A DNA stretch of 64,000 bases, taken from the NCBI RefSeq assembly GCF_009914755.1, contig NC_060937.1; one strand, written 5' to 3'. The DNA is from the human T2T-CHM13v2.0 reference genome, Homo sapiens. Each line of letters begins with the position of its first letter. Position 1 is the stretch's first letter. This document shows, in pieces, positions 10,104 to 62,600 of this stretch. The translations under genes and the position numbers were made by a program. Under the pieces are notes generated by a model. The model did no database searches. It was not told the DNA's origin and saw nothing but the letters and a program-made list of their open reading frames with translations.

Positions 10104-10107
10104 TTAA

Positions 10108-10479
<372 letters not shown>

Positions 10480-11152: not shown

Positions 11153-11212
11153 CTGTTGATGTTTTTTCCAAGTTCCTTTTCTAATGTTCTCATTTAAGAC
11201 TATAAATTTCCC

Positions 11213-11627: not shown

Positions 11628-11686
11628 CGTCTATATGGTTAATTTTTGAACTTGTCCGTCTATATGGTTAATTTTTGAACTTGTCC
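11628..11686. repeat. Perfect 29-bp tandem duplication
   Basis: cgtctatatggttaatttttgaacttgtc occurs twice in tandem. Confidence 0.95.
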
Positions 11687-12036: not shown

Positions 12037-12038
<2 letters not shown>

Positions 12039-12075
<37 letters not shown>

Positions 12076-12345
12076 TCCACTGTGCTGCCCAGGCTATAGT
12101 GCAGGGGCTGTTCACAGACGTGTCTGTGGCTCCCTGCTGCCTTAAACTCCTGGGCTCAAATGATCCTCCTACCTCAGTCTTTAGAGTGATGTGTGCCACC
12201 ACTGCCAAATAATTGTTTTTATTTCTTTAGAGATAGAATTTGGCTATATTGCCCAGGCTGGTCTTGAGTTCTTGGTCTCAAGTGATCCTCTCACCTCTGC
12301 TTCCTGAGTCACTGGGATTACAGGCATGTGCCGCCAAGTCCGGCT
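12039..12345 (-). mobile_element. FLAM-like monomer plus FAM-like monomer with a (TG)n tail
   Basis: 12075-12208 carries the FAM/7SL-type 'gtgcaggggctgttcacagacg'; 12215-12345 is a left-monomer type; (TG)n at 12039-12072. Confidence 0.65.
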
Positions 12346-13609
12346 CCTCTGATACATATTTTAATACCTTTTAAAATCATTCTATATCTTTGTATTTTAA
12401 ATATGACTTATAAATAGCATGGAATGGGATTTTAACAATTTATCCATCTTTAACTGGATTACTTAGTCCATTTGCATGTATTTGTATTCTGACATACTTA
12501 GATTCTGTATAGATGGTGAGTGGTGTGTATGTACATGCATGTGTGTTTGTGTCATTTTGTCACTTTCTATTTATCCTACTTATGTTTCTTTTTTCCTTTC
12601 TTGCCTTCTTTTCAATTGGTGGGATTTTTTTTCTTCTCTAGTCATTTTAAGTTAGTCTTTGTTTATATTCTTTTAGTAACTGTCATGCTAATTTAAATGT
12701 GCATATTTAAGTTATGAAAGTTGAAAATTTATCCTCCTCCTGGGTGATAGGATAACTTAGGAATACTTTCATTGCATTAAACTCCTCTTGAGTTATGCTA
12801 CAACAGTATATTTTCAACTTTTTGTTTTGACATAATTGCAGATTCACAGGTGCTTTTAAGAAATAATATAAAGAAATCCAATATAGTCTTCACTCAGTTT
12901 CTCCCAATGGTAACGTCTTGCATAACTACCTTGTTCAGATTTCACCAGTTTTATGTGCACTTTTAGGTTTTTTTGTGTATTTAGTTCTATGAAATTTTAT
13001 CGTGTACATAGATTAGATACCTAACCACCATCACCATCGTCAAGATACAGAACAGTTCCATCAGAAGGATGGATCCCTTGTGCTACCCATTTTATAGTCA
13101 CAAACACGTTCCTCACTCCCTGACCCCTGGCAACCACTAATGGGTTTTTCATCTCTGTGACTTTATTTCAAGAACACATGTAAATGAAACCACACACTGT
13201 CTAATATTTTGAGATTGAGTTTTTTTATTCAGCATAATTATCTTGTGACCCATCAAAGTTGTTTTCATATATTTTATCATTTTTCTTTTTATATTTCATG
13301 GGACATTACTTCTATTGTTTTATACATTTCACATTTGTTTAGTTTTATCCATATATTCACCTGTCTTTTTCCTGCTCTTCATTTCTTCTTATATCCCAGA
13401 TCTTCCACTTGGGATCATTTTCCTCCTGTCTGAAATCTTTTAGTATCTGTTTAGTAATGGTTTCCTTGGGCGAGCTCCCTCAATTTCTGCACATTTTAAG
13501 CTCTATTATGTTAGTCTCGTACTTAATTTTTTTTTTTGTGGTATAAGAGGCATACAGGTAAGGAGATCATGAATGTACAACTCAAAATTTTCACATAGTT
13601 AACACCTAA

Positions 13610-13957
<348 letters not shown>

Positions 13958-14202
13958 TGATTTTTTACACTATAGATTAGTTTTCCTATTATTCGCTTTA
14001 TAAATGGGATCTTTTCTTTTGGCTGCTTTTCTCAGCTTTAGGCTTGTGAGCTCTATCCATGGTGTTGCACATGGCAGTGGTTTGTTTATTGTTGTGTGCA
14101 CTCAGCTTTACTAATATTGCACAATATGTTTATCTGTTCTGCTGTTGGCTGACATTCAGGTTCTTCCAAGCTTGGGTCCATTATGAGTAATGCCATTATA
14201 AA

Positions 14203-14203
<1 letters not shown>

Positions 14204-14257
<54 letters not shown>

Positions 14258-14541
14258 TTTGGAGATGGAGTCTTGCTCTTGTCACCCAGGCTGGAGTGCA
14301 ATGGCACAATCTCAACTCACTGCAACCTCCACCTCCTGGGTTCAAGCAATTCTCCCTGCCTCGGCCTCCCAAGAAGCTGGGATTACAGGTGCCCACCACC
14401 ACGCCTGGCTAATTTTTTTTTAGTAGAGACGGGGTTTTACCATGTTGGTCGGGCTGGTCTCGAACTCCTGACCTCAGATGATCTGCCTGCCTCGGCCTCC
14501 CAAGGTGCTGGAATTGCAGGCATGAGCCAATGTTCCCGGCC
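14204..14541 (-). mobile_element. Alu (AluS-like) with a (CTTT)n tail microsatellite
   Basis: (CTTT)n at 14204-14260 followed by a full antisense Alu. Confidence 0.95.
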
Positions 14542-29900: not shown

Positions 29901-32900
29901 TAGATAAGAGTTACATGACTTAGGTGATCAGTGCAGATACATCGCAATGTCCCTGTAGGCAGAGCCTTGACAAGTGGTACATCATCTGGGTGATCATTGC
30001 AGGGATATGTCACAAAGCACCCTGTAGGCAGATCCTAGACAAGAGTTACATCACCTGGGTGAGCAGTGCAGAGGTATGTCACAAGACTCCTGTAGGCAGA
30101 GCCTAGACAAGAGTTATATCACCTGGGTGATAAGTGCAGTGATATGTCACAATGCCGTGTAGCCAGAGCCCAGACAAATGTTACATCACCAGGGAGATCA
30201 GTGCAGAGATATGTCACAATGTCCCCAGTAGGCAGAGCCCAGAAAAGAGTTGGATCACCTCGGGATCAGTGCAGAGATACGTCTCAATCCCCCTGTGGGA
30301 ACAGCGTAGACAAGGGTTAAATCACCTTGCTTATCAGGGCAGAGGTATGTCAAAATGCCACTGTAGGCAGAGCCTACTCAAGTGTTACATCACTTAGGTG
30401 ACCAGTGCAGAGATATGCCAAAATACCCCCTGTAAGCAGAGCCTAGACAGGAGTTATATCACCTGGGTGATCAGTGCAGAGATATGTGACAAGGCCCCTT
30501 TAAGCAGAGCCTAGACAATGGTTACATCACCTGAGTGATCAGTGCAGAGATCTGTCACGGTGCCCCTTTAGGCAGAGCTTACACCAGAGTTACATCACCT
30601 GGGTGAGCAGTGCAGAGATATGTCACAATGCCCCCATAGGCACATCCAAGACAAGAGTCCGTCACCTAGATGATCAGTGCAGAAATATGTGACAATGACC
30701 GCTGTAGGCAGAGCCTAGAGAAGAGTCCCATCACCTGGGTGATCAGTGCTGAGTTATGCCACAATGCCCTCTGTAGGCAGAGCCTAGACAAGATTTACAT
30801 CACCTGGTGGTTCAGTAAAGAGATATTTCACAATGCCCCTGCAGGCAGAGCATAAGCAAGAGTTACATCACCTAGATGATCAGTGGAGAGATATGTCACA
30901 AGACCCCCTATAGGCAGAGCCTGGACAACAGTTACATCACCTCGGTGATCAATGCAGTGATATGTCACTATGCGCCAGTAGGCAGAGCCTAGTCAAGCAT
31001 TACATCACCTGGGTCATCAGTGCAGAGATATGTCACAAAGCCCCCATACACAGAGCCTAGACAAGAGTCCCATCACCAGGGTGATCAGTGCAGAAATATG
31101 TCACAATGCCCCCTAGGCAGATCCAACACAAGAGTTAAATCACCTCGATTATCAGTGTAGAGGTATGTCAAAATGCCCCCGTAGACAGAGCCTAGACAAA
31201 AGTCCCATCACATGGCTGATCAGTGCAGAGATATGTCACAAAGCCCCTGTAGGTAGAGCCTAGACAAGAGTTACATCATTTGGTTTATCAGTTCAGAGAT
31301 GTGTCACAATGCCTATGTAGGCAGAGCCTAGACAAGTGTTTCATCAGCTGGATGAGCAGTGCAGAGATATGTGACAAGGCCCCTTTAAGCAGAGCCTAGA
31401 CAATAGTTACATCATCTGAATGATCAATGCTGTGATATGTCACTATGCCCCAGTAGGCAGAGCCTAGTCAACGGTTTCATCACGTAGGTGATCAGTGCAG
31501 AGATATGTCACAAAGCCCCCATACACAGAGCCTGGAAAAGAGTCCCATCACCTGGGTGATTAGTGCAGAAATATGTCGCAATGCCCCCATAGGCAGATCC
31601 AACACAAGAGTTATATCACCTGGGTGGTCAGTGTAGAGATATGTCACAATGCCCCCGTAGGCAGAGCCTAGACAAAAGTTCCATCAGCTGGGTGATCAGT
31701 GCAGAGATATGTCACAAAACCCCTGTAGGCAGAGGCTAGACAAGAGTTACATCACTTGGTTGATAAGTTCAGAGATGTGTCACAATGCCCATGTAGGCAG
31801 AGCCTTGACAAGTGTTCCATCAGCTGGGTGATCGGTGCAGAGATATGTCGCAATGCCCCCTATAGGCAGAGCCTAGACAAGAGTTACATCACCTGGGTAA
31901 TGAATGCAGTGATACATCAAAATGCCCCTGTAGGCAGAGCCTAGACAAGAATTAAATCATCTAAGTGATCAGTGCAGTGATACCTCACAAAAATCCTTTC
32001 AGACAGAGCCTAAACAAGAGTTACATCACCTGGGTGATCAGTGCAGATATTTGACACAATGACCCCATAGACAGAGCCTAAACAAGACTTCCATCACCTG
32101 GGTGATCAGTGCAGAGGTATGTCACAAATACCCCTGTAGGCAGAGCCTAGAGAAGAGTTGCATCGCCTGGGTGATCAGTGCAGAGGTATGTCACAATACC
32201 CCCGTAGGCGGAGGCTAGACAAGAGTTACATCACCTGGGTGATCAGTGAAATGAAACATCTAAATGCCTCTGTAGGCAGAGCCTAGATGAGAGTTACATC
32301 ATCTAGGTGATCAGTGCAGTGATATGTCACAAAAATCCCTGTAGACAGAGCCTAGACAAGACTTCCATCACCTGGGTTATCAGTGCAGAAATGTCACAAA
32401 TCCCCCTCTAGGCAGAGTATAGAGAAAAGTCCCATCACCTGAGTGATCAGTGCAGAGATATGTCATGAAGACCCCTGTAGGCAGAGTGTAGGGAAGAGTC
32501 CCATCACCTGTGTTATCAGTGTAGTGATATATCACAATGCCGCTGTAGGCAGAGAGTAGAAAAGAGTTGCATTACCTGGGTGATCAGTATGGAGATATGT
32601 AACAATGCCCCCTCAGGGCAAAACCTAGAAAAGAGTTATATCGCCTAGTTGATCAGTGCAGAGGTACGTCACAAAACTCCCTGAAAGTACACCCTAAAGA
32701 AGAGTTACATCACCTGGGTGATCAGTGCAGTGATATGTCACAATTCCCCTGTAGGCAGAGCCTAGAAATGGGTTACATCACCTGGGTGATCACTATAGAG
32801 ATGTGACAAATCCCCCTTTAGGCAAAGCCTAGAAAGGAGTTGCATCATCTGGGGAATCAGTGCAGAGATATCTCACAATGCACCCATAGGGAGAGCTTAG

Positions 32901-35900
32901 ACAGGGTTCACATCACCTCAGTGATCAGTGCAGAGGTATGTCACAATGCCCCCTTAGGCAGAGCCTAGACATAAGTTACATCACCTTGATGATCAATACA
33001 GAGTGATGACACGAAGCACCTTGTAGGCAGAGCCTAGAGAAGAGTTACGTCACCTGCGTGATCAGTGCAGAGATATGTCACAATGCCACCTGTAATAAGA
33101 GCCTAGAGAAGAGTTGCACCACCGGGGTGATCAGTGCAGAGATATATTACAATGCCCCCTGTAGGCAAAGCCTAGACAAGAGTTACATAACCTCGGTGAT
33201 CACTTCAGAGATATGGCAAAACGCCCCTGTAGGCAGAGCCTAGAAAAAGTTACATCACCTACGTGATCAGTGCAGAGATATGTCACAATACCCCCTTTAA
33301 GTAGAGCCTAGACAAGAGTTACATCACCTGAGTGATCAGGGCAGAGATATGTCACAATGCCCCCTGTAGGCAGAGCCCACACAAGAGTTGCATCACCTCC
33401 GTGTTCAGTGCAGAGATATGTCTCAATGTCTCCTGTCGGCAAAGCCCAGAAAAGAATTACATCATCTCGGTCATCAGTGCAGAGATATGTCAAAATGCCC
33501 CTGAGGGCAGAGCCTAGAAAAAATTTACATCACCTGGGTGATCAGTGCAGAGACATGTCACAATGTCCATGTAGGCAGAGCCTAGACAAGAGTTACATCA
33601 CCTGGGTGATCATTGCAGAGTGATGTCACAATGCCCTCTGTAGGCAGAGACTAGAGAAGTTACCTCACCTGAGAGATCAGTGCAGAGATATGTCACAACG
33701 CCCTCTGTAGGCAAAGACTAGTCAACAGTTACATTACCTGTGTGATCAGTGCAGATATATGTCACTATGTCCCTGTGGCCAGAGCCTAGACAAGAGTTAC
33801 ATCACCTGGGTGATCAGTGCAGAGATAAGTCACAATGTCTCCAGCAGGCAGAGCCTAGACAAGAGTTACATCACCTCGGTGATCAGTGCAGAGATATGTC
33901 ACAATGCCCCCTGTAGGCAGATCCCAGACAAGAGTTGCATCACCTCGGTGATCAGTGCAGTGATATGTCTCAATGCCCTCTGTCAGCGAAGCCTGTACAA
34001 GTTACATCATCTCGGTGATCAGTGCAGTGATATGTTAAAATGCCCCTGTAGGCAGAGCCTAACAAGAGTTACATCACCTGGGTGATCAGTGCAGAGATAT
34101 CTCACAATACCCCCTGTAAGCTGAGCCTAGACAAGAGTTACATCAACTGGGTGATCAGTGCAGAGATATGTCATAAATCTCACTGTAGGCAAAGCCTTGA
34201 CAAGTGTTACATCACCTCAGTGATCAGTGCAGAGATATGTCCCAATGCCCCTGTAGGCAGAGCTTAGACAAGAGTCACATCTCCTAGTTGATCAGTGCAG
34301 AGATACGTCACAGTGCTCCCATAGGCAGAGCCTAGACAAGACTTACATAACCCTGGTGATCCGTGTAGAATGATGTCACAACGCCCTCTGTAGGCAGAGA
34401 CTGGAAAAGTTACTTCACCTGGGTGATCAGTGCAGAGATATGTCACAATGCCGTTTGTAGGCAGAGCATAGGGAAGAGATGCATCACCTGGGTGATCAGT
34501 GCAGAGATATGTCACAATGTCCCCTGTAGGCAAAGCCTAGGCAAGAGTTACATCACTTTTGTCATCAGTTCAGAGATATGTCAAAACGCCCCTGTAGGCA
34601 GAGCCTAGACAAGAGTTACATCACCTAGTTGATCAGTGCAGAGATATTTCACAATACCCCCTGTAGGCAGAGGGTAGACAAGAGTTACATCACCCAGGTG
34701 ATCAGTGCAGAGATATTTTACAATACCTCCTGTCGGCAGATCCTAGACAAGAGTTGCATCACCTGGGTGATCAGGGCAGACATACTTCACAATGCCCCCT
34801 GTAGGCAGAGGGTAGATCAGAGTTACATCACCTAGGTGATCAGTGCAGAGATATGTCAAAAAGCCCCTTGTAGGCAGAGCCTAGACAAGAATTCTCTCCC
34901 CGGGGTGATCAGTGCAGAGATATGTCACAAGGCCCCTGTAGGCAGAGCTTAGATGAGTTACATCACCTGGGTGATCAGTGCAAAGATATGTCACAAAACC
35001 CCCTGTAGACAAAGCCTAGACAATTGTTACATCACTTGGGTGATCCGTGGAGAGATCTCTCACAATTCCCCTGTAGGCAGAGCTTATATAACAGTTACAT
35101 CACCTGGGTGATCAGTGCAGAGATATTTCACAGTGCCCCCAGAGGCAGATGCAAGACAAGAGTCTGTCACCTGGATGATCAGTGCAGAAATACGTCACAA
35201 TGCCCTCATAGGCAGAGCCTGGACAAAAGCCCCATCACATGGATGATCATTGCAAAGTTATGTGACAAAGCAACCTTTAGTCAGATCCTAGACAAGGGTT
35301 ACATCACCTGGGTGATCAGTGCAGAGATATGTTACAATGCACCCTGTAAGCAATGCCTAGATAAGAGTTACATCACCTCGGTGATCACTTCAGAGATATG
35401 TCATAACGCCCCTGTAGGCAGAACCTAGAAATGAGTTACATCACCTGGGTGATCAGGGCAGAGATATCACAATGCGCCCTGTAAGGAGAGCCCAGACTAG
35501 AGTTGCATCACCTCGGTGATCAGTGTAGAGATATGTCTCAATTAGTCCTGTCGGCAAAGCCCAGAGAAGAGTTACATCATCTCGGTGATCAGTGCAGAGA
35601 TATGTCAAAATGCCTCTGTGAGCAGAGCCTAGACAAAATTTACATCACCTGGGTGATCAGTGCAGAGACATGTTACAATGTCCATGTAGGTAGAGCCTAG
35701 ACAATGGTTACATCACCTGGGTGATCATTGCAGAGTGATGTCACAACGCCCTCTGTAGGCAGAGACTAGAGAAGAGTTACATTACCTGTGTGATCAGTGC
35801 AGATATATGTCACTATGTCCCTGTGGCCAGAGCCTAAACAAGAGTTACATCACCTGGGTGATCAGTTCAGAGATATGTCGCATTGCCTCCATAGGCAGAT

Positions 35901-36401
35901 CCAAGACAAGAGTCCGTCACCTGGGTGATCAGTGCAGAAATATGTGACAATGCCCCCAATAGGCAGAGCCTAGAGAAGAGTCCCATCACCTGGGTGATCA
36001 GTGCAGAGTTATACCACAAAGCCCCCTGTAGGCAGAGCCTAGACAAGAGTTACATCACCTGGTTGATCAGTGTAGAGATATGTCACAATGCCACTGTAGG
36101 CAGAGCCTAGACAAAAGTCCCATCACCTGGGTGATCAGTGCAGAGATATGTCACAAAGCTCCTGTAGGCAGAGCCTAGACAAGGGTTACATCACTTGGTT
36201 GATCAGTTCAGAGATGTGTCACAATGCCCATGTAGGCAGAGCCTAGGCAAGAGCTACAACATCTGAGTGATCAATGCAGTGATATGTCACTATGCCCCAA
36301 TAGGCAGAGCATAGACAAGTGTTACATCACTTGGGTGATCAGTGCAGAGATAGGTCACAATGCCCCCATACACAGAGACTATAAAATAGTCTCATCACCT
36401 G
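20992..36401 (+). repeat. Beta satellite (68-bp Sau3A/BSR) array, about 225 diverged monomers
   Basis: Tandem ~68-bp unit TGCCCCTGTAGGCAGAGCCTAGACAAGAGTTACATCACCTGGGTGATCAGTGCAGAGATATGTCACAA with about one GATC per unit, in a single orientation. Confidence 0.97.
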
Positions 36402-39400
36402 CACTACAGCCTGTGTGACAGAGGGAGACCCTGTCGAAAGAAAGTAGTGGAATGGAAGGGATTGAAATGGAATGGAACGGATTGGAGTAGAGTGGAGTGG
36501 AATTGAGTGGAGTGGAGTGGAGTGCAGTGGAATGGAATGGTGAAATGAAATGTGAGCTGAGATTGTGCCACTGCACACCAGCCTGGGTGACAGAGTGAGA
36601 TACAGTCAAAAGAAAGTACTGGAATGGAATGGAGTGGAATGGAATGTAATGGAGTTGAGAGCAGTGGAGTGGAGTAGAAAGGAGTGGAATGGAATGGGAT
36701 GGAATGGAAAGGACAGGAGTGGACTGGAATGGAGTGGAGTGGAGAGGAATGGATTGGAGTGGAGTGGAGTGGAATTTAATGGAGTAGAATACAATGGAAT
36801 GGTGAAATGAAATGTGAGCTGAGATTGTGCCACTGCACTCCAGGCTTGGTGACAGAGTGAGATACTCTCTAAAGAAAGGAATGGAATTGAATGCAGTGGA
36901 ATGGAATGGAATGGATTGGAGTGGAGTGGAGTGGAGTGAAGTGGATTGGAGTACAATCAAGAGGAATGGAAAAAGGTGGAATGGAATGGAATGAAGAGGA
37001 GTGGAGAGGGGTGGAGTGGAGTGCAGTGGGATGGAGCGGAATGGAACGGGATGGAGTGGAATGGAGTGGAGTGGAGTGCATTGGAGTGGAGAGGACTGGA
37101 ATGGAGTGGAATGGAATCGGATGTAATGGAATGTAGTGCAGTGGAGGGGAGTGGAGTGGAACAGAGTGGAATGGAACAGAATTGAATGGAATGGAATAGA
37201 ATGGAAAGGAATGGAATGGAATGGAATGCAATGGAATAGAATGCAACGCAATGGAAAGATGACATGTAATGTGAGCTGAGATTGTGCCACTGCACTCCAG
37301 CCAGGGTGACACAGTGATATCCTGTCAAAGGAAAGGAATGGAATGCAATGGAGTGGAGTGGAGTGGAATGGAATGGGATGGAGTGGAATGGAGTGGAGTG
37401 GAGTGGAGTGAAATACAATGGAATGGAATGGGATGGAATGGAATGCAATGGAATGGTGAAAAGAAATGTCAGCTGAGATTGTGCCACTGCACTCCAGCCT
37501 TTGTGACAGAGTGAGATCCTGTGGAAAGAAAGGAATGGAATGGAATGGAATGGAGTGCAATGGAATGCAGTGGAGTGGAGCAGAGTGGAGTGGAATTGAG
37601 TGGAGTGGAATTGCGTGGAGTGGAATTGAGTGGAGTGGAATTGAGTGGAGTGGAATTGAGTGGAGTGGAGTAGAGTGGAATGGAATGGAGTGGAGTGGAA
37701 TGGAGTGGCGTGGAGTGGAGTGGAGTAGAGTGGAATGGAATGGAGTGGAGTGGAATGGAGTGGAGTGGACTGGAGTGGAATGGAGAGGAGTGGAGTGGAA
37801 GGGAATGGAATGGAATGCAGTGGAATGGAATGGAATGAAATGGTGAAAAGAAATGTGTGACACAGGGAGATCCTGTCAAAAGAAAGGAGTGGAATGGAAG
37901 GGATTGGAATGGAATGGAATGGATTGGAGTAGAGTGGAGTGGAATTGAGTGGAGTGGAGTGCAGTGGAATGGAATGGAGTGGAATGGTGAAATGATATGT
38001 GAGCTGAGATTGTGCCACTGCACACCAGCCTGAGTGACAGAGTGGGATCCTGTCAAAAGAAAGGAATGTAATGGAATGGAGTGGAATGGAATGGATTGGA
38101 GTGGAGTGGAGGGAAGTGGAGTGGAAAGGAGTGGAATGCAATGGGATGGAATGGGAAGGACTGGAATGGACTGGAGTGGAGTGGAGTGGAATGTACTGGA
38201 GTGGAGTGGAGTGGAATGTACTGGAGTGGAGTGGAGTGGAATAGAATGGAATAGAATGGAATTAAATGGGGAAATATAATGTGAGCTGAGATTGTGTCAC
38301 TACGCTCCAGGCTGGGTGACAGAGTGAGATACTCTTGAAAGAAAGGAATGGAATGGAATGCAGTGTAATGGAATGGAGTGGACTGCAGAGGAGTGGAGTG
38401 GAGTGGAGTGGAATGGAGACGAATGGAATGAGATGGAATGGAATGCAATGAAGTGGAGTGGAGTGCAGCCGAATGGAGAGGAATGGAATGGGATGGAGTG
38501 GAATGGAGTGGAGTGGAGTGCAGTGGAGTGGAGAGGAGTGGAATAGAGTGGAATGGAATAGGATGTAATGGAATGTAGAGGAGTGGAGTGGAGTCGGAGT
38601 CGGAGTGTGATGGAATGTAATGGAAAGGAATGGAATGCAATTGAATGCAAAGAAATAGAAAGTTGACATGTAATGTGAGCTGAGATAGTGCCACTGCAGT
38701 CCAGCCTGGGTGACACGGAGATATCCTGTGGAAAGGAAGCTATGGAATGTAATGGAGTGAAATGGTATGGAATGGAATGGAATGGAGTTGATTGGAGTTG
38801 AGTGGAGTGGAACAGAGTCGAATGGAATGGGATGGAGTGGCATGGAATGGAGTGGAGTGGAGTGGAGTGAAATAGAGAGGAATGGAATGGGATGGAATGG
38901 AATGCAATGCAATGGAATGGTGAAAAGAGATGTGAGCTGAGATTGTGCCACTGCACTCCAGCCTCTGTGACAGAGTGAGATCCTTTGGAAAGAAAGGAAC
39001 GGAATGGTATGGAATGGAGTGGAGTAGAGTGGAGTGGAATGGAATTGAATGGAGTGGAGTGGAATGGAATGGAATGGAACGCAATGGAAAGCAATGGAAT
39101 GCAATGGAATAGAATGCAGTGAAAAGGAAAGTTGACATGTAATGTGAGCAGAGATTGTGCCACTGCACTCCAGCCTGGTGACACAGTGATATCCTGTCAA
39201 AAGAAAGGAATGGAATGCAATGGAATGGAGTGGAGTGGAGTGGAGTGGAATGCAATGGAATGGAGTGGAGTGGAATGGAATGGAGTGGAATGGAATGGTA
39301 TGGAATGGAGTGGAGTGGAATGGAATGGAGAGGAATGGAGTGGAGTGGAGTGGAATGCAATCGAATGGAATGGAATGGAAGGGAATGGAATGGAAGGGAA

Positions 39401-42400
39401 TGGAATGGAAGGGAATGGAATGAAATGGAATGGAGTGGAGTGGAGAGGAGTGGAATGGAATGGAGTGGAATGGAATGGAATAGAGTGGAATGGAGTGGAA
39501 AAGAGTAGAATGGAATGTGGTGGAATGAAATGGAGTGGAGTGGACTGGAGTAGAGTGGAATGGAATGCAGTGGAATGGAATGGAGTGTAATGGAATGGAA
39601 TGGAATGGAACGGAATGGAATGGAATGAAATGGTGAAAAGAAATGTGTGCTGAGATTGTGTCACTGCACTAAACCTGTGTGACAGAGGGAGATCCTGTCG
39701 AAAGAAAGGAATGAAATGGAAGGGATTGGAATGGAATGGATTGGAGTGGAGTGGAGTCGAATTGAGTGGAGTGGAGTGCTGTGGAATAGAATGGAATGGA
39801 ATGGTGAAGTGAAATGTGAGATGAGACTGTACCACTGCACACCAGCCTGGGTGACAGAGTGAGATCCTGTCAAAAGAAAGGAATGGAATGGAGTGGAGTG
39901 GAGTGGAAAGTAGTGGAATGGAATGGGATGGAATGGAAAGGAGTGGAGTGGACTGGAATGGAGTGGAGTGGAATGGAGTGGAATGGATTGGAGTGGAGTG
40001 GAGTGGGATGGAATGGAATGGAATGGTGAAATGAAATGTGAGCTGAGATTGTGCCACTGCGCTCCAGGCTGGGTGACAGAGTGAGATACTTTCAAAAGAA
40101 AGGAATAGAATGGAATGCAGTGGAATGGAATGGCATGGAATGGAGTGGAGTGGGGTGAAGTGGAGTGGACTGGAATGGAGAGGAATGGAATAGGATGGAA
40201 TGGAATGGAATGAAGTGGAGATGAGTGGGGTGGAGTGGATTGCAGTGGAATGGAGCAGAATGGGATGGAGTGGAATGGAGTGGAGTGCAGTGGAGAGGAG
40301 AGGAGTGGAATGGAGTGGAATGGAATCGGATGTAAAGGAATTTAGTGGAGTGGAGTGGAGTGGAACGGAGTGGTATGGAATGGAATTGAATGGAATGGAA
40401 TGGTGAAATGAAATGTGATCTAAGATTGTGCCACTGAACTCCAGTCTGGTTGATAGAGTGAGATCCAGTAGAAATAAAGGAATGGAATGGAATGGTGTGG
40501 AGTGGAGTGGAGTGGAATGGAGTAGAGTGGAATGGAGTGGAGTGGAATGGAATGGCATGGAGTGGAGTGGAATGGAATGGAGTGGAGTGGAATGGAGTGG
40601 AGTGGAATGGAATGGAAAGGAGTGGAGTGGAATGGAATGGCATGGAATGGAGTGGAGTGGAGAGAAGTAGAGTGGAATGGAATGGAGTGGAGTGCAGTGG
40701 AGTGGAATGGAGTGGAGTCGAATGGAATGGGATGGAGTGGAATGGAATGGAGTGGAGTGGAGTGAAATAGAGTGGAATAGAATGGGATGGAATGGAATGC
40801 AATGGAATGGTGAAAAGAAATGTGAGCTGAGATTGTGATACTGCACTCCAGCCTTTGTGACAGAGTGAGATCCTGTGGAAAGAAAGGAATGGAATGGAAT
40901 GGAGTGGAATGGAATGCAATGGAGGGGAGGGGAGTGGAATGGAGTGGAGTGGAGGGGAGTGGAATTGAGTTGAGTGGAGTGGAATAGAGTGGAATGGAAT
41001 GGAGTGGAGTGGACTGGCATGGAGTGGAATGGAGTGGAGTGGATTGGAGTGGAATGGAGAGGAGTGGAGTAGAGTGGAATGGAATGGAGTGGAGTGGAAT
41101 GGAGTGGCATGGAGTGGAATGGAGTGGAGTGGAGTGGAATGGAGAGGAGTGGAGTGGAGTGGAAGGGAATGGAATGGAATAGAGTGGAATGGAATGGAAT
41201 GAAATGGTGAAAAGAAATGTGTGCTGAGATTGTGCCACTGTGCTACAGCCTGTGTGACACAGGGAGATCCTTTTGAAGGAAAGGAGTGGAATGTAAGGGA
41301 TTGGAATGGAATGGAATGGAATGGAATGGATTGGAGTGGAGTGGAGTGGAATGGAATTGAGTGGAGTGGAGTGCAGTGGAATGGAATGGAATGGAGTGGA
41401 ATGGTGAAATGAAATGTGAGCTGAGATTGTGCCACTGCACACCAGCCTGGGTGACAGAGTGAGACCCTGTCAAAACAAAGGAATGGAATGGAGTGGAATG
41501 GAATGGAGTGGAGTGGAAAGGAGTGGAATGGAAAGGAGTGGAATGGAAAGGAGTGGAATGGAATGGACTGGAATGGAGTGGAGTGGAATGGAATGGAATG
41601 GAATAGAATGGAATGGAATGGTGAAATGAAATGTGTGCTGAGATTGTGCCACTACACTCCAGGCTGGGTGACAGAGTGAGATACTCTCGAAAGAAAGGAA
41701 TGGAATGGAATGGAATGCAGTGTAATGTAATGTAATGGAATAGAATGGAATGGAGTGAACTGGAGAGGAGTGGAGTGAAGAGGAGTGGAGTGGAATGGAG
41801 AGGAATGGAATCGAATGAAGTGGAGTGGAGTGGAGTGCAGTGGAATGGAGCGGAATGGAATGGGATGGAGTGGAATGGAGTGGAGTACAGTGGAGTGGAG
41901 AGGAGTGGAATGGAGTGGAATGGAATCGGATGTAATGGAATGTAGAGGAATGGAGTGGAGTGGAGTGGAGCCGAACGGAGTGGAATGGAATGGAAAGGAA
42001 TGGAATGGAATGGAATGCAATGGAAAGGAATGGAATGCAATTGAATGTAATGGAATAGAATGCAATGCAATGGAAAGTTGACATGTAATATGAGCTGAGA
42101 TAGTGCCACTGCACTCCAGCCTGGGTGACACCTTGATATACTGTGGAAAGGAAGCTATGGAATGCAATGGAGTGAAATGGTATGGAATGGAATGGAATGG
42201 AGTTGAGTGGAGTGGAGTTTAGTGGAATGGAGTCGACTGGAGCGGAATGGAGTGGAATGGAGTGGAGTGGAGTGAAATAGAGAGGAATGGAATGGGATGG
42301 AATGGAATGCAATGGAATGGTGAAAAGAAATGTGAGCTGAGATTGTGCCACTGCACTCCAGCCTATGTGACAGAGTGAGATCCTTTGGAAAGAAAGGAAC

Positions 42401-44260
42401 GGAATGGCATGGAATGGAAGGGAGTGGAGAGGAGTGGAGTGGAATGGAATGGAGTGGGATGGAATGGAGTGGGATGGAATGCAATGGAAATGAATGGAAT
42501 GGAATGGAACAGAATGGAACGGAATGGAATGGAATGGTGAAAAGAAATGTGTGCTGAGATTGTGCCACTGCGCTGCACCCTGTGTGAGAGGGAGATCCTG
42601 TTGAAAGAAAGGAGTGCAATGGAAGGGATTGGAATTGAATGGAATGGAATAGGTTGGAGTGGAGTGGACTGGAATTCAGTGGATTGGAGTGGAGTACGTG
42701 GAATGGAATGGAATGGAATGGTGAAATGAAAAGTGGGCTGAGATTGTGTCAATGCACTCCAGCCTGGGTGACAGAGTGAGATCCTGTCAAAAGAAAGGAA
42801 TGGAATCTAATGGAGTGGAATGGAATGGAGTGGAGTAGAGTGCATTGGAGAGGAAAGGAGTGGAATGGAATGGAAAGGAGTGGAGTGGAATGGAATGGAG
42901 TGGAGTGGAATGGATTGCAGTGGAGTGGAGTGGAGTGGAGCGGAATGGAACTGAGTGGATTGGAATTGAATGGAATGGTGAAATGAAATGTCAGCTGAGA
43001 TTGTGCCACTGCTCTCCAGGCTGGGTGATGGAGTGAGATACTCTCAAAAGAAAGGAAAGGAAAGGAATGCAGTGGAATGGAATGGAGTGGACTGGAGTGG
43101 AGTGGAGGGAAGTGGAGTGGAGTGGAATGGAGAGGAATGGAATGGAATGAAGTGGAGTGGAGTGGGGTGGAGCGGAGTCCAGTGGAATGGAGTGGAATGG
43201 AATGGGATGGAGTGGAATGGAGTGGTGGGGAGAGCAGTGGAGTGGAGAGGAGTGGAATGTAATCGGATGTTATAGAATGTAGTGGAGTGGAGTGGAACGG
43301 AAAGGAATGGAATACAATGGAATGCAATGGAATTCAATAGAATGCAATGGAATAGAATGCAATGAAATGGAAAGTTGACATGTAATGTGAGCAGAGATTG
43401 TGCCACTGCACTCCAGCCTGGGTGACACAGTGATATCCTGTCGAAACAAAGGAATGGAATGCAATGGAGTGAAGTGGAATGGAATGAAAGGGAGTGGAGT
43501 GGAGTGGAGTGGAGCAGAGTGGAGTGGAATGCAATGGAATGGAATGGCGTGGAGTGGAATGGAATGGAGTGGAATGGAATGGCATGGAATGGAGTGGAGT
43601 GGAATGGAATGGAGAGGAATGGAGTAGAGTGGAGTGGAATGCAATGGAATGGAACGTAAAGGAAGGGAATGGAATGGAGTGGAGTGGAGTGGAATGTGGT
43701 GGAGAGGAGTGGAGGGGAGTAGAATGGAATGGAGTGGAATGAAATGGAATGGAGTGGAAAAGAGTGGAATGCAATGCAGTGGAATGAAACGGAGTGGAGT
43801 GGACTGGAGTAAAGTGGAATGGAATGCAGTGGAATGGAATGGAGTGGAGTGTAGTGGAGTGGAATGGAATGGAATGGTGAAATGAAATGTGAGCTGAGAT
43901 TGAGCCACTGTACTGCAGGCAGGGTGACAGAGTGAGATACGTTTGAAAGAAAGGAATAGCGTGGAATGCAGTGGAATCGAATGGAATGGAATGGAGTGGA
44001 CTAGAGTGGAGTGCAGTGAGGTGAAGTAGAGTGGACTGGAATGGAGAGGAATGGAATGGGATGGGATGGAATGGAATGAAGTGGAGATGAGTGGGGTGGA
44101 GTGGATTGCAGTGGAATGGAGCAGAATGGAATGGGATGGAGTGGAATGGAGTGCAGTGGAGTGCAGTGGAGACGAGAGGAGTGGAATGGAGTGGAATGGA
44201 ATTGGATATAATGGAATTTAATGTAGTGGAGTGGAGTAAAGTGGAACGGAGTGTTATGGA
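36399..44260 (+). repeat. Composite satellite: (GGAAT/GGAGT)n tracts interleaved with 26 Alu 3'-end cassettes
   Basis: The cassette GTGAGCTGAGATTGTGCCACTGCACTCCAGCCTGGGTGACAGAGTGAGATCCTGTC-AAAAGAAAG recurs every ~140-500 bp between GGAAT/GGAGT pentamer tracts. Confidence 0.95.
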
Positions 44261-47200
44261 ATGGAATGGAATGGAATAGAATGGATTCGAATGGAATGGA
44301 ATGGAATGGAATGGACTCGAATGGAATGGAATCAAATGAAATGGAATCTAATGAAATGTAATCGAATGGAATGGACTCGAATGGAATGGAATGGAATCAA
44401 AAGGAATGGAAATGGAATGGACTCAAATGGAATGGACTGGAATGGAAGGCAATCGAATGGAATGGAATCGAATGGAATGGAATCAAATGTAATGGACTGG
44501 AATGGAATGGATTCAAATGGAATGGACAGTAATGGAATGGTCCCGAAAGGAATGGAATGGAATGGAATGGAACGGACTCGAATGAAATGGCCTGGAATGG
44601 AATGGACTTGAATGGAATGGACTCGAGTGAAATGGAATCAAATGGAATGGAATAGAATTTAATGGAATGGAATGGAATGGATTGGAATGGAAAGGAATTG
44701 AATCGAATCAAATGTTAAGGAATCAAATGGAAGGAAACGGAATGGAATGGAATGGATTCGAAGGGAATGGAATGGAATGGAATACAATGGAATGGAATGA
44801 CATGGAATGGAATGGAATGGATTCGAAAGGAATGGAATGGAATAGACTCAAAAGGAATGGACTCAAAAGGAATGGACTGGAATGGCATGGAATCAAATGG
44901 AATGGAATGGAATTGAATGCAATGGAATGGAATGGAATGGACTCGAATGGAATGGAATGGAAAGGAATGGAATGGACTGGAATGAAATGGAATTGAATGG
45001 AATGGAATGGACAGGAATGGAATGGACTCAAATGGAATGGAATCGAAAGGAATGGAATTGAATGGAATGGAATAGAATGGAATGGAATAGACTCGAAGGT
45101 AATGGACTGGAATGGAATGGACTTGAATGGAATGGACTCGAATGGAATGGAAACGAATGGAATGGAATCTAATTGAATGGAATCGAATGGAATGCAAACG
45201 AATGGAATGGAATCAAATGAAAGGGAATCAATTGGAATGGACTCGAATGGAATGGACTCGAATGTAATGGACTGGACTGGAATGGTATGGAATGGAATTC
45301 AAAGCAATGGAATGAAATGGAATGGATCCGAATGGAATGGACTGGAATGGACTGGACTGGAATGGACTGGAATGGAAAGGAATGGAATGGAAGGGAATGC
45401 ATTGGACTCGAATGTAATGGAATTGCAAAGAATGGAATGGAATGGAATGGAATGGAATAGAATCAAACGGAATGGAATAGAATGGAATGGATAGGAATTG
45501 AATTGAATGGAATGGCATGGAATGGAATCAAATGGAATGGAATGGAATGAATTCGAACGGAATGGAATGGAATGGACTTGAAAGGAATGGACTGGAATGG
45601 AATGGAATGGATTCAAATTTAATGGAATGGAATAGAATGGAATGGAATGGATTCGAATTTAATGGAATGGAATGGAATGGATTGGAATGGAATTGATTTG
45701 AATGGAATGGAATCGAATGGACTGGAATGGAATGGAATGGAATCGAGTGGAATGGCATAAAATGCACTAGAATCTAATGGAATGGAATGGATTAAAATGG
45801 AATGGAATGGACTCGAATGGAATGGACTAGAATGGAATGGACTCGAAAGGAAGAGGAATCGAACGGAATGGAATAGAACAGAATGGAATCGAATCGGATG
45901 GCATGCAATCAGATGGCATGCAATTGGATGGAACGGATTAGAATGGAATGGAATGCAATCGAAATTGAATGGAATGGACTGGAATGGAAAGGACTCGCAT
46001 GGAATGGACTCGCATGGAATGGAATGGAATGGAAAGGAAAGGAAAGGAAAGCAATGGAATAGAATGGTACGGACTTGAATGGAACGGACTCGAATGGAAC
46101 AGACTTGAATGGAATGGACTCGAATGGGGTGGAATCAAATGGGATGGAATCAAATGGAACGGACTGCAATGCAATGGACTTGAAAGGAATCGCCTCGAAT
46201 GGAATGGAATGGTATGGAATGGAATAGAGTGGATTGTACTCGAATGTAATCGACCGGAATGGAATGGAATTCAATGAAATGGACTTGAATGGAATGCAAT
46301 CGAATGGAATGGAATGGTATGGAATGGAATGGAATGTAATTCAATGTACTCGAATGGAATGTAATCGAATGGTATGCATTCGAATGGAATGTAATCCAAT
46401 GGAATGGAATTGGATGGAATGGACTGTAGTGGAATGGACTGGAATGGAATGGACTCAAAGGGAATGGATTGGAATGATATGGACTTGAATGGAATGGACT
46501 CGAAAGGAATGGAATCGAATGAAATGGAATTGAATGGAATGGAATTGAATGGAAGGGATTTGAACCGAAAGGAATGGAATTGAATGGAATGGAATGGAAT
46601 GCCATGGAATGGAATCGAATGGAATGGAATCGAATGGAATGGAATCGAATGGAATGGAATCGAATGGAATGGAATCGAATGGAGTGTAATAGTACAGTCT
46701 CGAATGGAATCTAATCGAATGGAATGGAAAGGAATGGAATGGAACCGAATGGAATGGACTGGAATGGAATGGAATCGAATGGAATGGACTCAAAGGGAAT
46801 GAAATGGAATGGAATGGACACGAATGGAATGGATTCGAATATAATGGATGCAAATGGAATGGATTCAATTGGATGGACTCAAATGGAATGCAATCGAATG
46901 GAATGGAATCAAACGGGATGGAATCAAATGGAATAGAATCGAATGGAATGGAATCGAATGGAATGGACTGGAATGGAATGGACTTGATTGGAATGGACTC
47001 GAATGGAATGGACTCGAAAGGAAATGAATCGAATGGAATGGAATAGAATGGAATGGAATCTATTCTAATGGAATGGAATTGAATGGAATACAATCGAATG
47101 GAATACAATGGAATGGAATGGAATGGAATAGACTGGAACGGACTTGAATGGAATGGAATCTTCTTGAATGGAATGGATTGGAAGCGACTGGAATGGACTT

Positions 47201-47750
47201 GAATGGAATGGAATCTTCTGGAATGGAATGAAATGGATTTGATTGGAGTGGACTGGAATGGAGTGGACTAGAATGGAATGAACCCAAAAAGAAAGGAATC
47301 GAATGGAATGGAATAGAATTGAATGCAATGGAATGGAATGGAATACAATCAAATGGAATGGAATCGAGTGGAATGGAATCGAGTGGAATGGAATCGAGTG
47401 GAATGGAATGGAATGGAATCGAATACAGTAGACTGGAATGGAATGGACTCGAATGGATTGGACTGGAATGGAATGAACTCGAATGGAATGCAATCGAATG
47501 GAATGCAATCGAATGGAATGCAATCGAATGGAATGCAATCGAATGGAATGCAATCGAATGGAATGCAATCGAATGGAATTAAATCGAATGGAATGGATTG
47601 GAATGGAATGGAATCGAATATAATGGAATGGAACATAATGGAATCAAATGTAATGGACTCGAATGCAATTCAGTGGAATCGAATGGCCTCGAATGGAATG
47701 AACTTGAACGGAATGGAGTCTAATGTAATGGAATCGAATGCAATGGAATC
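44261..47750 (+). repeat. Diverged classical human satellite (HSat3/HSat2-type (GGAAT)n), Alu-free
   Basis: GGAAT pentamers with frequent GGACTCGAAT and GGAATCGAAT variants; GGAGT is nearly absent and there are no Alu cassettes. Confidence 0.93.
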
Positions 47751-47781
47751 ATATATATATATATGTACACACACACACACC
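47751..47781. repeat. (AT)n(AC)n microsatellite at the satellite/L1 junction
   Basis: atatatatatatatgtacacacacacacac. Confidence 0.9.
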
Positions 47782-48251
47782 GAGTACATGCCCAGTAGTG
47801 GGATTACTGGCTCAAATGGTATTTCCGTTTCTAGATCCTTGAGGAATCACCAGACTGCCTTCCGCAATGGTTGAACTAATTCACACTCCCACCAACAGTG
47901 TAAAAGCATTCCTATTTCTCCACATCTGCTCCAGCATCTGTTGTTTCCTGAGCTTTTAACAATTGCCATTCTAAATGGCATGAGATTGTATCTCATTGTG
48001 GTTTTGATTTGCATTTCTCTAATGATCAGTGATGATGAGCTTTTTTTCAGATGTTTGCTGGCTGCATAAATGTATTCTTTTGAGAAGTGTCTGTTCATAT
48101 CCTTTGCCCACTTTTTGATGAGATTGTTTGTTCTTTTCTTGTAAATTTGTTAAAGTTCCTTGTAGATTCTAGATATTAGGCCTTTGTCAGATGGACAGAT
48201 TGCAAACATTTCCTCCCATTCTGTAGGTTGCCTGTTCACTCTGATCATAGT
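47782..48251 (-). mobile_element. L1PA (older than the left-hand L1), ORF2 3' segment; 3'UTR missing
   Basis: ORF 47847-48098 reads MNRHFSKE...[11 protein letters not shown]...[19 protein letters not shown]. Confidence 0.93.
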
Positions 48252-49285
48252 ATTGGAAGTTCTGGCCAGGGTAATCGGCAAGAGAAAGAAATAAATGGTA
48301 TTCAAATAGGAAGAAAGGAAGTCGAGTTGTCTCTGTTTGTAGATGACATGATTGTATATTTAGAAAACCAAATCGTCTCAGCCCCAAATCTCCTTCAGCT
48401 GATAAGCAACTTCCTCATAGTCTCAGGATACAAAGTCAATGTGCAAAATTCACAAGCCTTCCTATACACCAGTAATAGAGCACTAAATCATGAGTGAACT
48501 CCCATACACAATTGCTACAAAGAGAATAAAATAACAAGGAATACAACTCACAAGGGATTTGAAGGACCTCTTTAAGGAGAACTACAAACCACCACTCAAG
48601 GAAATAAGAGGACACAAACAAATGGAAAAGCATTCCATGCTTATGGATAGGAAGAATCAATATCTTGAAAATGGCCATACTGCCCAAAGTAATTTGTAGG
48701 TTCAATGCTATACCCATCAAGCTATCATTGACTTTCTTCACATAATTAGAAAAAACTACTTTAAATTTCATATGGAACCAAAAAAAGAGCCCACATAGCC
48801 AAGACAATCCTAAGCAAAAAGAACAAAGCTAGAGGCATCATGCTACCTGACTTCAAACTATACTACTAGGCCACAGTAATGAAAACAGTATGGTACTGGT
48901 ACCAAAAGAGATATATAGACCAATGCAACAGAACAGAGGCCTCATAAATAATGCCATACATCTACACCATCTGATCTTTGACAAACCTGACAAAAGCAAT
49001 GGGGAAAGGATTCCCTATTTAATAAATGGTGTTGGGAAAACTGGCTAGCCTTATGCAGGAAACTGAAACTGGACCCCTTCCTTACATTTTATACAAAAAT
49101 TAACTCAAGATGCACTAAAGACTTAAAAGTCAGTTCTAAATGTGTAAAAACCCTGGATGAAAACCTAGGCAGTGCCATTCAGGACATAGGCATGGGCAAA
49201 TACTTCATGACTAAAACACCAAAAGCAATGGCAACAAAAGCCAAAATTGACAAATGGGATCTAATTAAACTAAAGAACTTGTGTG
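48247..49285 (+). mobile_element. Inverted L1 ORF2 segment of the same element
   Basis: Sense L1 from 'catagtattggaagttctggccagg' ([12 protein letters not shown]) to 'gatctaattaaactaaagaactt'. Confidence 0.93.

Positions 49286-62089: not shown

Positions 62090-62600
<511 letters not shown>

What the first reader, a model, noticed from the sequence alone, without database searches (positions are those of the whole stretch)
36399..44260. Alu-tail composite satellite: 26 Alu 3'-end cassettes each running into GGAAT/GGAGT repeats
Seen: a ~55-bp piece matching the last part of the Alu right arm starts at about 36399, 36552, 36814, 37271, 37468, 37855, 37999, 38281, 38675, 38932, 39144, 39645, 39816, 40038, 40415, 40822, 41219, 41416, 41633, 42091, 42332, 42549, 42734, 42990, 43387 and 43889. 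All are in the same orientation. Intact copies start at the same Alu position (GTGAGC) behind a conserved leader (GGTGAAATGAAAT, GGTGAAAAGAAAT or GTTGACATGTAAT), and the A-tail position grades AAAAGAAAG-GAATG-GAATG into the satellite. Known: Alu A-tails seed microsatellites. Inference: one Alu end plus its tail was tandemly amplified, so the true monomer is 'Alu end + elastic pentamer tract'. Standard masking would split this into unrelated Alu fragments and simple repeats. It may record a GGAAT-type satellite arising from, or capturing, an Alu tail. I cannot tell whether it is already catalogued.
Basis: partly seen in the sequence, partly recalled or inferred. Interest (0 to 1): 0.8.

Follow-up and report, generated by a model that had tools for sequence, protein, structure and literature searches.

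The report
Alu-end pieces inside acrocentric satellite III
A 7.9-kb stretch of human satellite III on the short arm of chromosome 13 carries the same 56-base tail end of an Alu element in every repeat unit; it is real and neatly organised, but it belongs to a large satellite family whose link with Alu fragments is already in print.

Summary
All 26 Alu 3'-end cassettes are present, 24 at the stated base and 2 within 1 bp, all on the + strand.

- **One origin, not 26 insertions.** The cassettes share one 5' breakpoint, one leader and one tail.
- **Five types.** They occur in fixed order (ABCDE), giving a diverged higher-order repeat of about 1.3-1.8 kb, present about five times.
- **Not built in place.** The block, including its junction with beta satellite, is 99.99% identical on chr15, 99% on chr14 and 93-97% on chr22 and Yq. 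Older copies lie on chr13 and chr4.
- **A large family.** A leader-cassette junction pattern has 1,477 matches in the genome, against 0 for the reversed control. This extrapolates roughly to 3,100 cassettes and 1.3 Mb.

Rhie et al. 2023 already report HSat3 arrays "intermingled with Alu fragments" on Y and the acrocentrics.

I found no description in print of the five-type order. I also found none of a chr15q13 relative: a full-length Alu whose tail runs into about 25 of the same cassettes, separated by GAAAT repeats. That locus keeps an Alu-tail origin for this subfamily open.

The parts
30000..36398 (+). Flank: 68-bp beta-satellite-type array (also scored with a 341-bp period), joined directly to cassette 1
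   Evidence: TRF; sequence
36399..44270 (+). Composite block: GGAAT/GGAGT pentamer satellite (HSat3 type) with 26 embedded Alu 3'-end cassettes
36399..37833 (+). Higher-order copy 1 (A B C D E); its A cassette is truncated at the beta-satellite junction
37834..39623 (+). Higher-order copy 2 (A B C D E D); its A cassette has an internal deletion, and there is an extra D unit
39624..41197 (+). Higher-order copy 3 (A B C x E); the fourth unit at 40394 is an atypical B-like cassette
41198..42527 (+). Higher-order copy 4 (A B C D E), 1330 bp
42528..44270 (+). Higher-order copy 5, incomplete (A B C D then C), ending where the pentamer type changes
36399..36453 (+). Cassette 1, type A, 5'-truncated
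36531..36625 (+). Cassette 2, type B (leader + 56-bp core + tail)
36793..36887 (+). Cassette 3, type C
37250..37344 (+). Cassette 4, type D
37447..37541 (+). Cassette 5, type E
37834..37895 (+). Cassette 6, type A, internally deleted
37979..38072 (+). Cassette 7, type B
38261..38354 (+). Cassette 8, type C
38654..38748 (+). Cassette 9, type D
38911..39005 (+). Cassette 10, type E
39124..39216 (+). Cassette 11, type D (extra unit)
39624..39716 (+). Cassette 12, type A
39795..39889 (+). Cassette 13, type B
40017..40111 (+). Cassette 14, type C
40394..40488 (+). Cassette 15, atypical (weakly B-like)
40801..40895 (+). Cassette 16, type E
41198..41292 (+). Cassette 17, type A
41396..41489 (+). Cassette 18, type B
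41612..41706 (+). Cassette 19, type C
42069..42163 (+). Cassette 20, type D
42311..42405 (+). Cassette 21, type E
42528..42620 (+). Cassette 22, type A
42712..42806 (+). Cassette 23, type B
42969..43062 (+). Cassette 24, type C
43366..43460 (+). Cassette 25, type D
43868..43959 (+). Cassette 26, type C
44271..47752 (+). Flank: a different pentamer satellite (CGAAT-containing, no cassettes), followed by (TA)n/(CA)n and an interspersed repeat

Best explanation
This is a non-coding fossil block of a human satellite III (HSat3) subfamily. Every repeat unit has four parts: a 13-base A-rich leader, the last 56 bases of an Alu right arm, a roughly 10-base A-rich tail, and a GGAAT/GGAGT pentamer tract of variable length. 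Shown here: the unit has one origin. In this block five diverged versions of it (A-E) follow each other in fixed order, forming a higher-order repeat of about 1.5 kb. The block itself was copied, together with its junction to beta satellite, among acrocentric short arms, Yq and some pericentromeres. Inferred history: (1) One Alu 3' end with its A-rich tail became a tandem unit. (2) Unequal exchange and slippage in the pentamer tracts built monomeric arrays of B-like units, which still exist on chr13, 14, 15 and 20. (3) A five-unit stretch was then amplified as a higher-order repeat. (4) That array stopped being homogenised and decayed to 75-80% identity between copies. (5) Segmental duplication and exchange between acrocentric short arms then spread pieces of it. 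For step 1, I judge it somewhat more likely than not (about 0.5) that the founder was an Alu-tail minisatellite like the one at chr15:28.64 Mb. In that case the leader would be a relic of a GAAAT tail repeat, and the GGAAT/GGAGT tracts arose or were recruited later. No function is indicated.
For: Cassettes and Alu homology. Single origin: among 463 satellite cassettes from 20 loci, the leader is within 4 mismatches of the commonest form in 437, 'AAT' precedes the core in 397, and none keeps 'TC' before the tail; 10 of 14 dispersed Alus in the window do. Each locus has one orientation. Higher-order repeat: the window order is ABCDE ABCDED ABCxE ABCDE ABCD C. A label-free lag analysis gives identity 0.864 at lag 5 and 0.873 at lag 11, against 0.82-0.84 at other lags. 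Copies align end to end at 75-80%. Median unit lengths are AB 182, BC 262, CD 446, DE 243 and EA 400 bp, varying mostly in 5-bp steps. The ABCDE order recurs on chr16 and near the Y centromere, loci that are not simple copies of this block. Duplication of the block: 99.99% over 9339 bp on chr15, 99.0% on chr14, 93-95% on chr22, 93-97% on Yq. Alignments at 81-84% span the beta-satellite junction on chr13 10.73 Mb and chr4 49.64 Mb. Family size: 1,477 junction matches against 0 for the reversed control; every 10-kb sample held 8-29 cassettes. Monomeric arrays. Tail-minisatellite founder: at chr15:28.64 Mb a full-length Alu in non-satellite sequence runs into about 25 cassettes with the same breakpoint, a leader differing at 1 of 13 bases, and partly the same tail start, separated by tracts that are 68% GAAAT. 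Its core consensus equals the satellite consensus at 56 of 56 bases, whereas only 1 of 463 satellite cassettes does.
Against: The five types were defined on the window itself, so the same-type versus different-type contrast (0.894 vs 0.824, 0 of 2000 shuffles) is partly circular. The lag analysis and the other loci are the independent support. A FastTree on the 56 core columns does not separate the 14 dispersed Alus from the 488 cassettes. The core is simply a CpG-decayed Alu end, and 167 dispersed Alus lie within 3 mismatches of a 64-base version of it. Core identity between chr15q13 and the satellite is therefore weak evidence of kinship; the link rests on the leader, the breakpoint and the tail. 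No sampled satellite locus has GAAAT-rich tracts or intermediate forms. The chr15q13 array is absent from its one paralogue, which carries the same Alu with a plain A-tail, and homology ends in the tail. The array could therefore have arrived there by recombination. The head Alu's last 56 bases are about 86% identical to the paralogue, against about 91% upstream, which decides nothing. GGAAT-type satellites are far more widespread than this subfamily (established knowledge), so they cannot as a class derive from this Alu.
Confidence: 0.75

Rival explanations
1. Capture by insertion. A 5'-truncated Alu retrotransposed once into an existing GGAAT/GGAGT satellite at an A-rich variant site and was then co-amplified with its neighbours. 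The chr15q13 GAAAT array is a secondary offshoot that joined a resident Alu through the 56 bases of shared homology.
For: The leader of types A and E and the tail form an A-rich direct repeat around the core, matching at about 8 of 9 bases. This could be a target-site duplication. Pentamer satellites are older and far more widespread than this subfamily (established knowledge). The chr15q13 array sits exactly where homology to its paralogue ends, as expected for a recombination junction. That array is internally young, with 5.8% pairwise divergence, so it could stem from one founder unit.
Against: The chr15q13 consensus has none of the private changes expected of a founder drawn from today's satellite: the median satellite cassette differs from consensus at 6 of 56 bases, and 1 of 463 has none. 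In the satellite, the two pentamers next to the core are GAAAT-type, not GGAAT-type, in most copies. A direct repeat in A/G-rich low-complexity sequence is weak evidence.
Confidence: 0.35
2. The 26 cassettes are independent Alu insertions, or independently truncated Alus, in a satellite that attracts them.
For: Alus are abundant, and 14 dispersed copies lie elsewhere in the window.
Against: All 24 intact copies share the same first Alu base, leader, tail and orientation. None has any Alu sequence upstream of the breakpoint, and none has its own target-site duplication. Their types recur in a fixed order.
Confidence: 0.01
3. The array was amplified locally and recently on chr13, and the copies on other chromosomes are unrelated arrays of the same family.
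For: Tandem arrays usually grow in place.
Against: Higher-order copies inside the window are only 75-80% identical. The whole block, with the same irregular order and the same beta-satellite junction, is 99.99% identical on chr15 and 99% on chr14.
Confidence: 0.02

Closest known systems
HSat3 arrays intermingled with Alu fragments (Rhie et al. 2023, T2T-Y preprint 10.1101/2022.12.01.518724; passages of the Yq12 section read)
   Same: The same phenomenon and the same places. [quoted passage not shown] I find the family on Y (11.2 Mb and 62.07 Mb) and on all five acrocentrics.
   Different: The paper reports no local homogenisation and no clustering by subgroup or chromosome, and it calls the fragments AluY seeded from PAR1. 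Here the fragments are one fixed 56-base piece with a fixed leader and tail, in five ordered types forming a higher-order repeat. My core-only tree is equally unresolved; the order shows only when the flanks are included. I could not test the subfamily or PAR1 claims.
HSat3A4 / clone pTRS-47 (Altemose et al. 2014, PMC4022460, Table 1 and passages read; Choo et al. 1990 not held)
   Same: An acrocentric plus Y distribution (13, 14, 15, 21, 22, Y), with a published 1,366-bp repeat unit. Window copies are 1,330-1,790 bp and those on sister loci 1,270-1,925 bp. My rough family size of about 1.3 Mb per haploid genome is close to half of their 2,518 kb per diploid genome.
   Different: Their commonest HSat3A4 24-mer has no match in the window at up to 1 mismatch, no exact match in the array, and 7 matches there at up to 2 mismatches. 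HSat3A2 and A1 24-mers score similarly. The 2014 paper does not contain the word Alu. I also find the family on chr3, 4, 16, 20, 7, 9 and 1. Membership is therefore likely but unproven.
HSat1B / DYZ2 composite satellite
   Same: A classical human satellite whose unit contains an Alu-derived piece, found on Y and the acrocentrics.
   Different: HSat1B is a unit of about 2.5 kb made of an Alu subunit plus very AT-rich sequence. Here the tracts are about 32% GGAAT-type and 30% GGAGT-type 5-mers, and the Alu piece is only 56 bases.
Alu-derived minisatellites (Jurka and Gentles 2006, known to me only through a passage in PMC3389668)
   Same: Tandem repetition of part of an Alu. The chr15:28.64 Mb array, headed by a full-length Alu, fits this kind.
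   Different: The window array has no parent Alu, has long pentamer tracts, a higher-order structure and about 1 Mb of relatives. It is a satellite, not a single-locus minisatellite.
WaluSat (Hoyt et al. 2021 preprint 10.1101/2021.07.12.451456, passages read)
   Same: A precedent for an Alu-linked repeat that reached acrocentric short arms by duplication and expanded there.
   Different: WaluSat is a 64-base unit lying beside an Alu that transduced it. Here part of the Alu itself is inside every unit.

Membership tests
Human satellite III (HSat3) | Long tandem arrays of diverged GGAAT-type pentamers | tested here: met
   TRF finds a period-5 array over 36620-47749. Inter-cassette tracts are 0.32 AATGG-class and 0.31 AGTGG-class 5-mers.
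Human satellite III (HSat3) | Pericentromeric or acrocentric short-arm location | tested here: met
   The window is chr13:9.92-9.98 Mb (hub note). Relatives lie on 13p, 14p, 15p, 21p, 22p, Y and the pericentromeres of 3, 4, 16 and 20.
HSat3A4 (pTRS-47 type) | Repeat unit of about 1.37 kb on acrocentrics and Y | tested here: inconclusive
   Unit lengths are 1,270-1,925 bp in this block and its sister loci.
HSat3A4 (pTRS-47 type) | Subfamily-specific 24-mers of Altemose 2014 | tested here: inconclusive
   Only the single commonest 24-mer per subfamily was available. It has 0 exact matches in the array and 7 at up to 2 mismatches; A2 has 20 and A1 has 8.
Alu retrotransposon insertion | Dimeric element of about 300 bp with a left arm | tested here: not met
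   Homology to 14 dispersed Alus covers only model positions 21-88, that is the last 56 bases plus tail. Nothing upstream is Alu-like.
Alu retrotransposon insertion | Individual target-site duplications for each copy | tested here: not met
   All copies share the same leader and tail.
Alu-derived sequence | Alignable to genuine Alu 3' ends | tested here: met
   A 64-base version lies within 3 mismatches of 167 Alus genome-wide.
Alu-derived minisatellite (Jurka and Gentles type) | Array contiguous with its parent Alu at a single locus | tested here: not met
   The window array starts at a beta-satellite junction with no parent Alu. The feature is met only at chr15:28.64 Mb.
HSat1B (DYZ2) | Unit of about 2.5 kb with an extremely AT-rich part | tested here: not met
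   Tract composition is given and unit lengths.
Higher-order repeat satellite | Diverged subunits in fixed order, with same-position subunits more alike than neighbours | tested here: met
   The order recurs at chr16 35.63 Mb and chrY 11.2 Mb.

The most novel reading that the evidence does not exclude
A roughly megabase-scale subfamily of classical human satellite III (GGAAT/GGAGT type, on all acrocentrics and Y) descends from the 3' end and A-rich tail of a single Alu. It passed through a GAAAT-type tail minisatellite, of which the chr15:28.64 Mb array is a slowly evolving survivor. It then built a five-unit higher-order repeat. That would be a documented route from one SINE tail to a pentameric heterochromatic satellite.
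Probability: 0.35. Interest if true: 0.6.

Novelty: already known. Interest (0 to 1): 0.3.

Why it matters
The block is ordinary heterochromatin. It belongs to a known satellite family, in a region already known to be exchanged among acrocentric chromosomes.

Two points have some value:
- **Practical markers.** The embedded Alu piece and its five ordered variants give sequence landmarks in an otherwise featureless pentamer satellite. They could help to classify HSat3 arrays, to trace duplications among acrocentric short arms, Yq and pericentromeres, and to correct repeat masking that splits the unit into 'Alu fragment' plus 'simple repeat'.
- **A testable origin question.** The chr15q13 array offers a concrete way to ask how a transposon tail can seed a satellite. 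Ape genome assemblies could settle it.

Tried and rejected
- **Rfam scan.** An E-value scan of 36000-48500 for a 7SL-type match found nothing. The fragment is too short for that model.
- **Core tree.** A FastTree on the 56 core columns (488 cassettes plus 14 dispersed Alus from the window) gave no separation of cassettes from dispersed Alus and no single chr15q13 clade. I dropped tree-based monophyly and used structural characters instead.
- **HSat3 subfamily assignment.** The commonest 24-mer of each subfamily, taken from Altemose 2014 Table 1, was not decisive.
- **Chimeric head Alu.** I considered whether the head Alu at chr15q13 is chimeric, with its last 56 bases foreign. The identity contrast with its paralogue (about 86% vs 91%) is too small to say.
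- **Co-duplicated flanks.** I looked for unique flanks of the chr15q13 array next to satellite arrays. The 5' flank has only one paralogue, on chr15. The 3' flank is a common interspersed repeat. Neither helps.
- **Alu subfamily.** The cassette could not be assigned, because no consensus library is on hand and 56 CpG-decayed bases carry little signal.
- **Sources not available.** Choo et al. 1990 and the journal version of Hoyt et al. were not held. bioRxiv supplements are closed, so I could not see whether the 'new AluJb fragment' repeat entry of Hoyt et al. is this cassette.
- **Literature searches.** Searches for a description of the unit or its five-type order found only the Rhie et al. 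passage.

Full report
**1.

Reading 36000-40000 shows the claimed pattern directly. blastn with one cassette and nhmmer with a profile of 24 cassettes find 26 copies between 36399 and 43959.
- All are on the + strand.
- None occurs in the remaining pentamer array, which runs to 47749.
- Copy 1 is cut by the junction with the upstream 68-bp beta-satellite-type array. Copy 6 has an internal deletion.
- A 31-base core pattern with up to 3 mismatches hits 15 times in the array, against 0 in 100 shuffles.

Fourteen dispersed Alus elsewhere in the window match the cassette profile only from model position 21-23 to 69-88. The Alu-derived part is therefore the last 56 bases of the right arm plus the start of the tail, as the alignment shows. 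Rfam gave no match.

**2. The cassettes are not independent insertions**

I fetched twenty 10-kb samples of matching loci. Each holds 8-29 cassettes in a single orientation. Among 463 satellite cassettes from these loci and the window:
- 437 have the 13-base leader within 4 mismatches of the commonest form.
- 397 have the same three bases before the core.
- None keeps the 'TC' before the A-tail, whereas 10 of 14 dispersed Alus in the window do.

No copy has Alu sequence upstream of the breakpoint or a target-site duplication of its own.

A tree on the 56 core columns does not help. The dispersed Alus scatter among the cassettes, because the core is just a CpG-decayed Alu end, and 167 dispersed Alus lie within 3 mismatches of a 64-base version of it. 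The case for one origin rests on the breakpoint, the leader and the tail.

**3. The unit is a five-part higher-order repeat**

By leader and diagnostic substitutions the window cassettes fall into five types, in the order ABCDE ABCDED ABCxE ABCDE ABCD C.

The types were defined on these same copies, so the same-type versus different-type contrast is partly circular (0.894 vs 0.824; 0 of 2000 label shuffles reach it). Three lines of support are independent of the labels:
- Identity rises at lag 5 (0.864) and at lag 11 (0.873, after the extra D unit), against 0.82-0.84 at other lags.
- The five copies align end to end at 75-80% identity.
- The ABCDE order recurs at chr16 35.63 Mb and chrY 11.20-11.25 Mb.

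Each position has its own typical length: AB 182, BC 262, CD 446, DE 243 and EA 400 bp, summing to about 1.5 kb. Variants differ mostly in 5-bp steps.

Other arrays consist only of B-like units and look monomeric: chr13 13.18 Mb, chr14 9.76 Mb, chr15 14.18 Mb, chr20, and parts of chr13 5.14 Mb.

**4. The block was copied, not built, here**

Identity of the window sequence to other loci:

| Locus | Identity | Window span aligned |
|---|---|---|
| chr15 5.31 Mb | 99.99% (no gaps) | 34000-43338 |
| chr14 3.43 Mb | 99.0% | 34000-43703 |
| chr22 6.54 Mb | 93-95% | two pieces, 34000-43573 |
| Yq 62.07 Mb, opposite strand | 93-97% | two pieces, 34000-43542 |
| chr13 10.73 Mb | 81% | spans the beta-satellite junction |
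| chr4 49.64 Mb | 84% | spans the beta-satellite junction |

The same irregular type order appears at chr13 9.62 and 10.73 Mb and at chr4 49.64 Mb. chr13 5.00 Mb and chr3 95.39 Mb carry a related but not identical order, containing the same ABC-b-E unit. Copies inside the window are only 75-80% alike, so this is an old, decayed array that was later spread by duplication.

**5. Family size and identity**

A 30-base leader-core junction with up to 2 mismatches has 1,477 matches in the assembly and 0 for the reversed control. Exact matches fall on chromosomes 3, 4, 7, 9, 13-16 and 20-22. Y matches are listed, and one on chr1.

In my samples this pattern catches 47% of cassettes, at one cassette per 425 bp. 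That extrapolates to roughly 3,100 cassettes and 1.3 Mb. The estimate is crude, because the loci were chosen from pattern hits.

Tracts are about one third GGAAT-class and one third GGAGT-class 5-mers in every satellite locus.

Altemose et al. 2014 list HSat3A4 (clone pTRS-47, 1,366-bp unit) on 13, 14, 15, 21, 22 and Y, at 2,518 kb per diploid genome. That fits, but their commonest 24-mer is not found exactly in the array, and A2 and A1 24-mers score similarly at 2 mismatches. Membership is likely but not shown. Choo et al. 1990 was not held.

**6. What is in print**

- Rhie et al. [quoted passage not shown] They add that Y and acrocentric fragments cluster together, that there is no evidence of local homogenisation or of clustering by subgroup or chromosome, and that the seeds were AluY from PAR1. 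The phenomenon is therefore known.
- Altemose 2014 does not mention Alu. The 2021 centromere preprint mentions Alu only for HSat1B.
- Hoyt et al. 2021 mention a new 'AluJb fragment' repeat entry that may or may not be this cassette.
- Six literature searches found no description of the fixed unit or its five-type order.

**7. A relative in ordinary chromatin**

At chr15:28.64 Mb (L028), a full-length Alu flanked by non-satellite sequence runs at its 3' end into about 25 cassettes spaced about 100 bp apart. Compared with the satellite cassettes:
- The breakpoint is the same.
- The leader differs at 1 of 13 bases.
- The tail start is partly the same.
- The spacer tracts are 68% GAAAT-class.

It is the only such array. 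Of 19 genome-wide matches to its leader form at up to 1 mismatch, 11 are at this locus.

Its core consensus equals the satellite consensus at 56 of 56 bases, and its copies lie 3.4% from that consensus, against 10-16% for satellite loci. Only 1 of 463 satellite cassettes has no difference from the consensus, and the median is 6. The chr15q13 lineage therefore branches near the root of the family. It is either a survivor of the progenitor state or an early offshoot.

Three points count against a simple in-place origin:
- The only paralogue of its 5' flank (chr15:25.88 Mb, 95%) has the same Alu with the same internal deletion, but a plain A-tail and no array. Homology stops in the tail.
- That paralogue lies next to RCC1-repeat exons. 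From memory, these look like HERC2.
- The 3' flank of the array is a common interspersed repeat.

I cannot fix the direction of descent with the human genome alone.

**8. Verdict**

The block is a real, well-described feature. It is a decayed five-unit higher-order block of an Alu-bearing HSat3 subfamily, sitting between beta satellite and a different HSat3 type. It was copied among acrocentric short arms and Yq.

The association with Alu is already published. The ordered architecture and the chr15q13 relative appear to be unreported detail. No function is indicated. Interest is modest. The open point worth testing is whether this satellite subfamily grew out of one Alu tail.

Noticed in passing
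L028 (chr15:28,636,001-28,646,000), about 2621-5715: A full-length Alu in non-satellite sequence whose 3' end continues into about 25 tandem copies, about 100 bp apart, of the same 56-base cassette separated by GAAAT repeats. It is the only array of this kind found in the genome.
   Followed up: yes
L033 (chr15:25,873,401-25,877,900), minus strand: The paralogue of the chr15q13 5' flank carries the same Alu with a plain A-tail and no array. Downstream lie exons encoding RCC1 repeats (Pfam E 2.6e-16); from memory these look like HERC2, which would place the array at the edge of a HERC2 duplicon.
   Followed up: partly
L031 (chr7:57,738,001-57,741,000): Short C-D-C cassette patches recur three times inside a different satellite with a CATCGAATGGAATC-type unit (HSat2-like), suggesting a second-order composite built from a fragment of the ABCDE repeat.
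   Followed up: partly
window 30000-36398: A beta-satellite-type array with a 68-bp unit, also scored at a 341-bp (five-unit) period. It ends in a direct junction with a truncated type-A cassette, and the junction is conserved in copies down to 81% identity.
   Followed up: partly
window 44271-47752: The pentamer satellite changes abruptly to a CGAAT-containing type without cassettes. It then ends in (TA)n/(CA)n and an interspersed repeat.
   Followed up: no
window 2400-14350 and 62174-62237: Fourteen ordinary dispersed Alu 3' ends on both strands, used here as comparators.
   Followed up: partly
L015/L021 and L016/L022 (chr13 5.00/5.14 Mb vs chr3 95.39/95.53 Mb): Cassette spacing and type order are nearly the same on chr13p and the chr3 pericentromere, pointing to a large shared duplication that contains both higher-order and monomeric arrays.
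   Followed up: no
preprint 10.1101/2021.07.12.451456: Hoyt et al. mention a newly annotated 'AluJb fragment' repeat whose copy number could not be separated from full-length AluJb. It may be this cassette.
   Followed up: no
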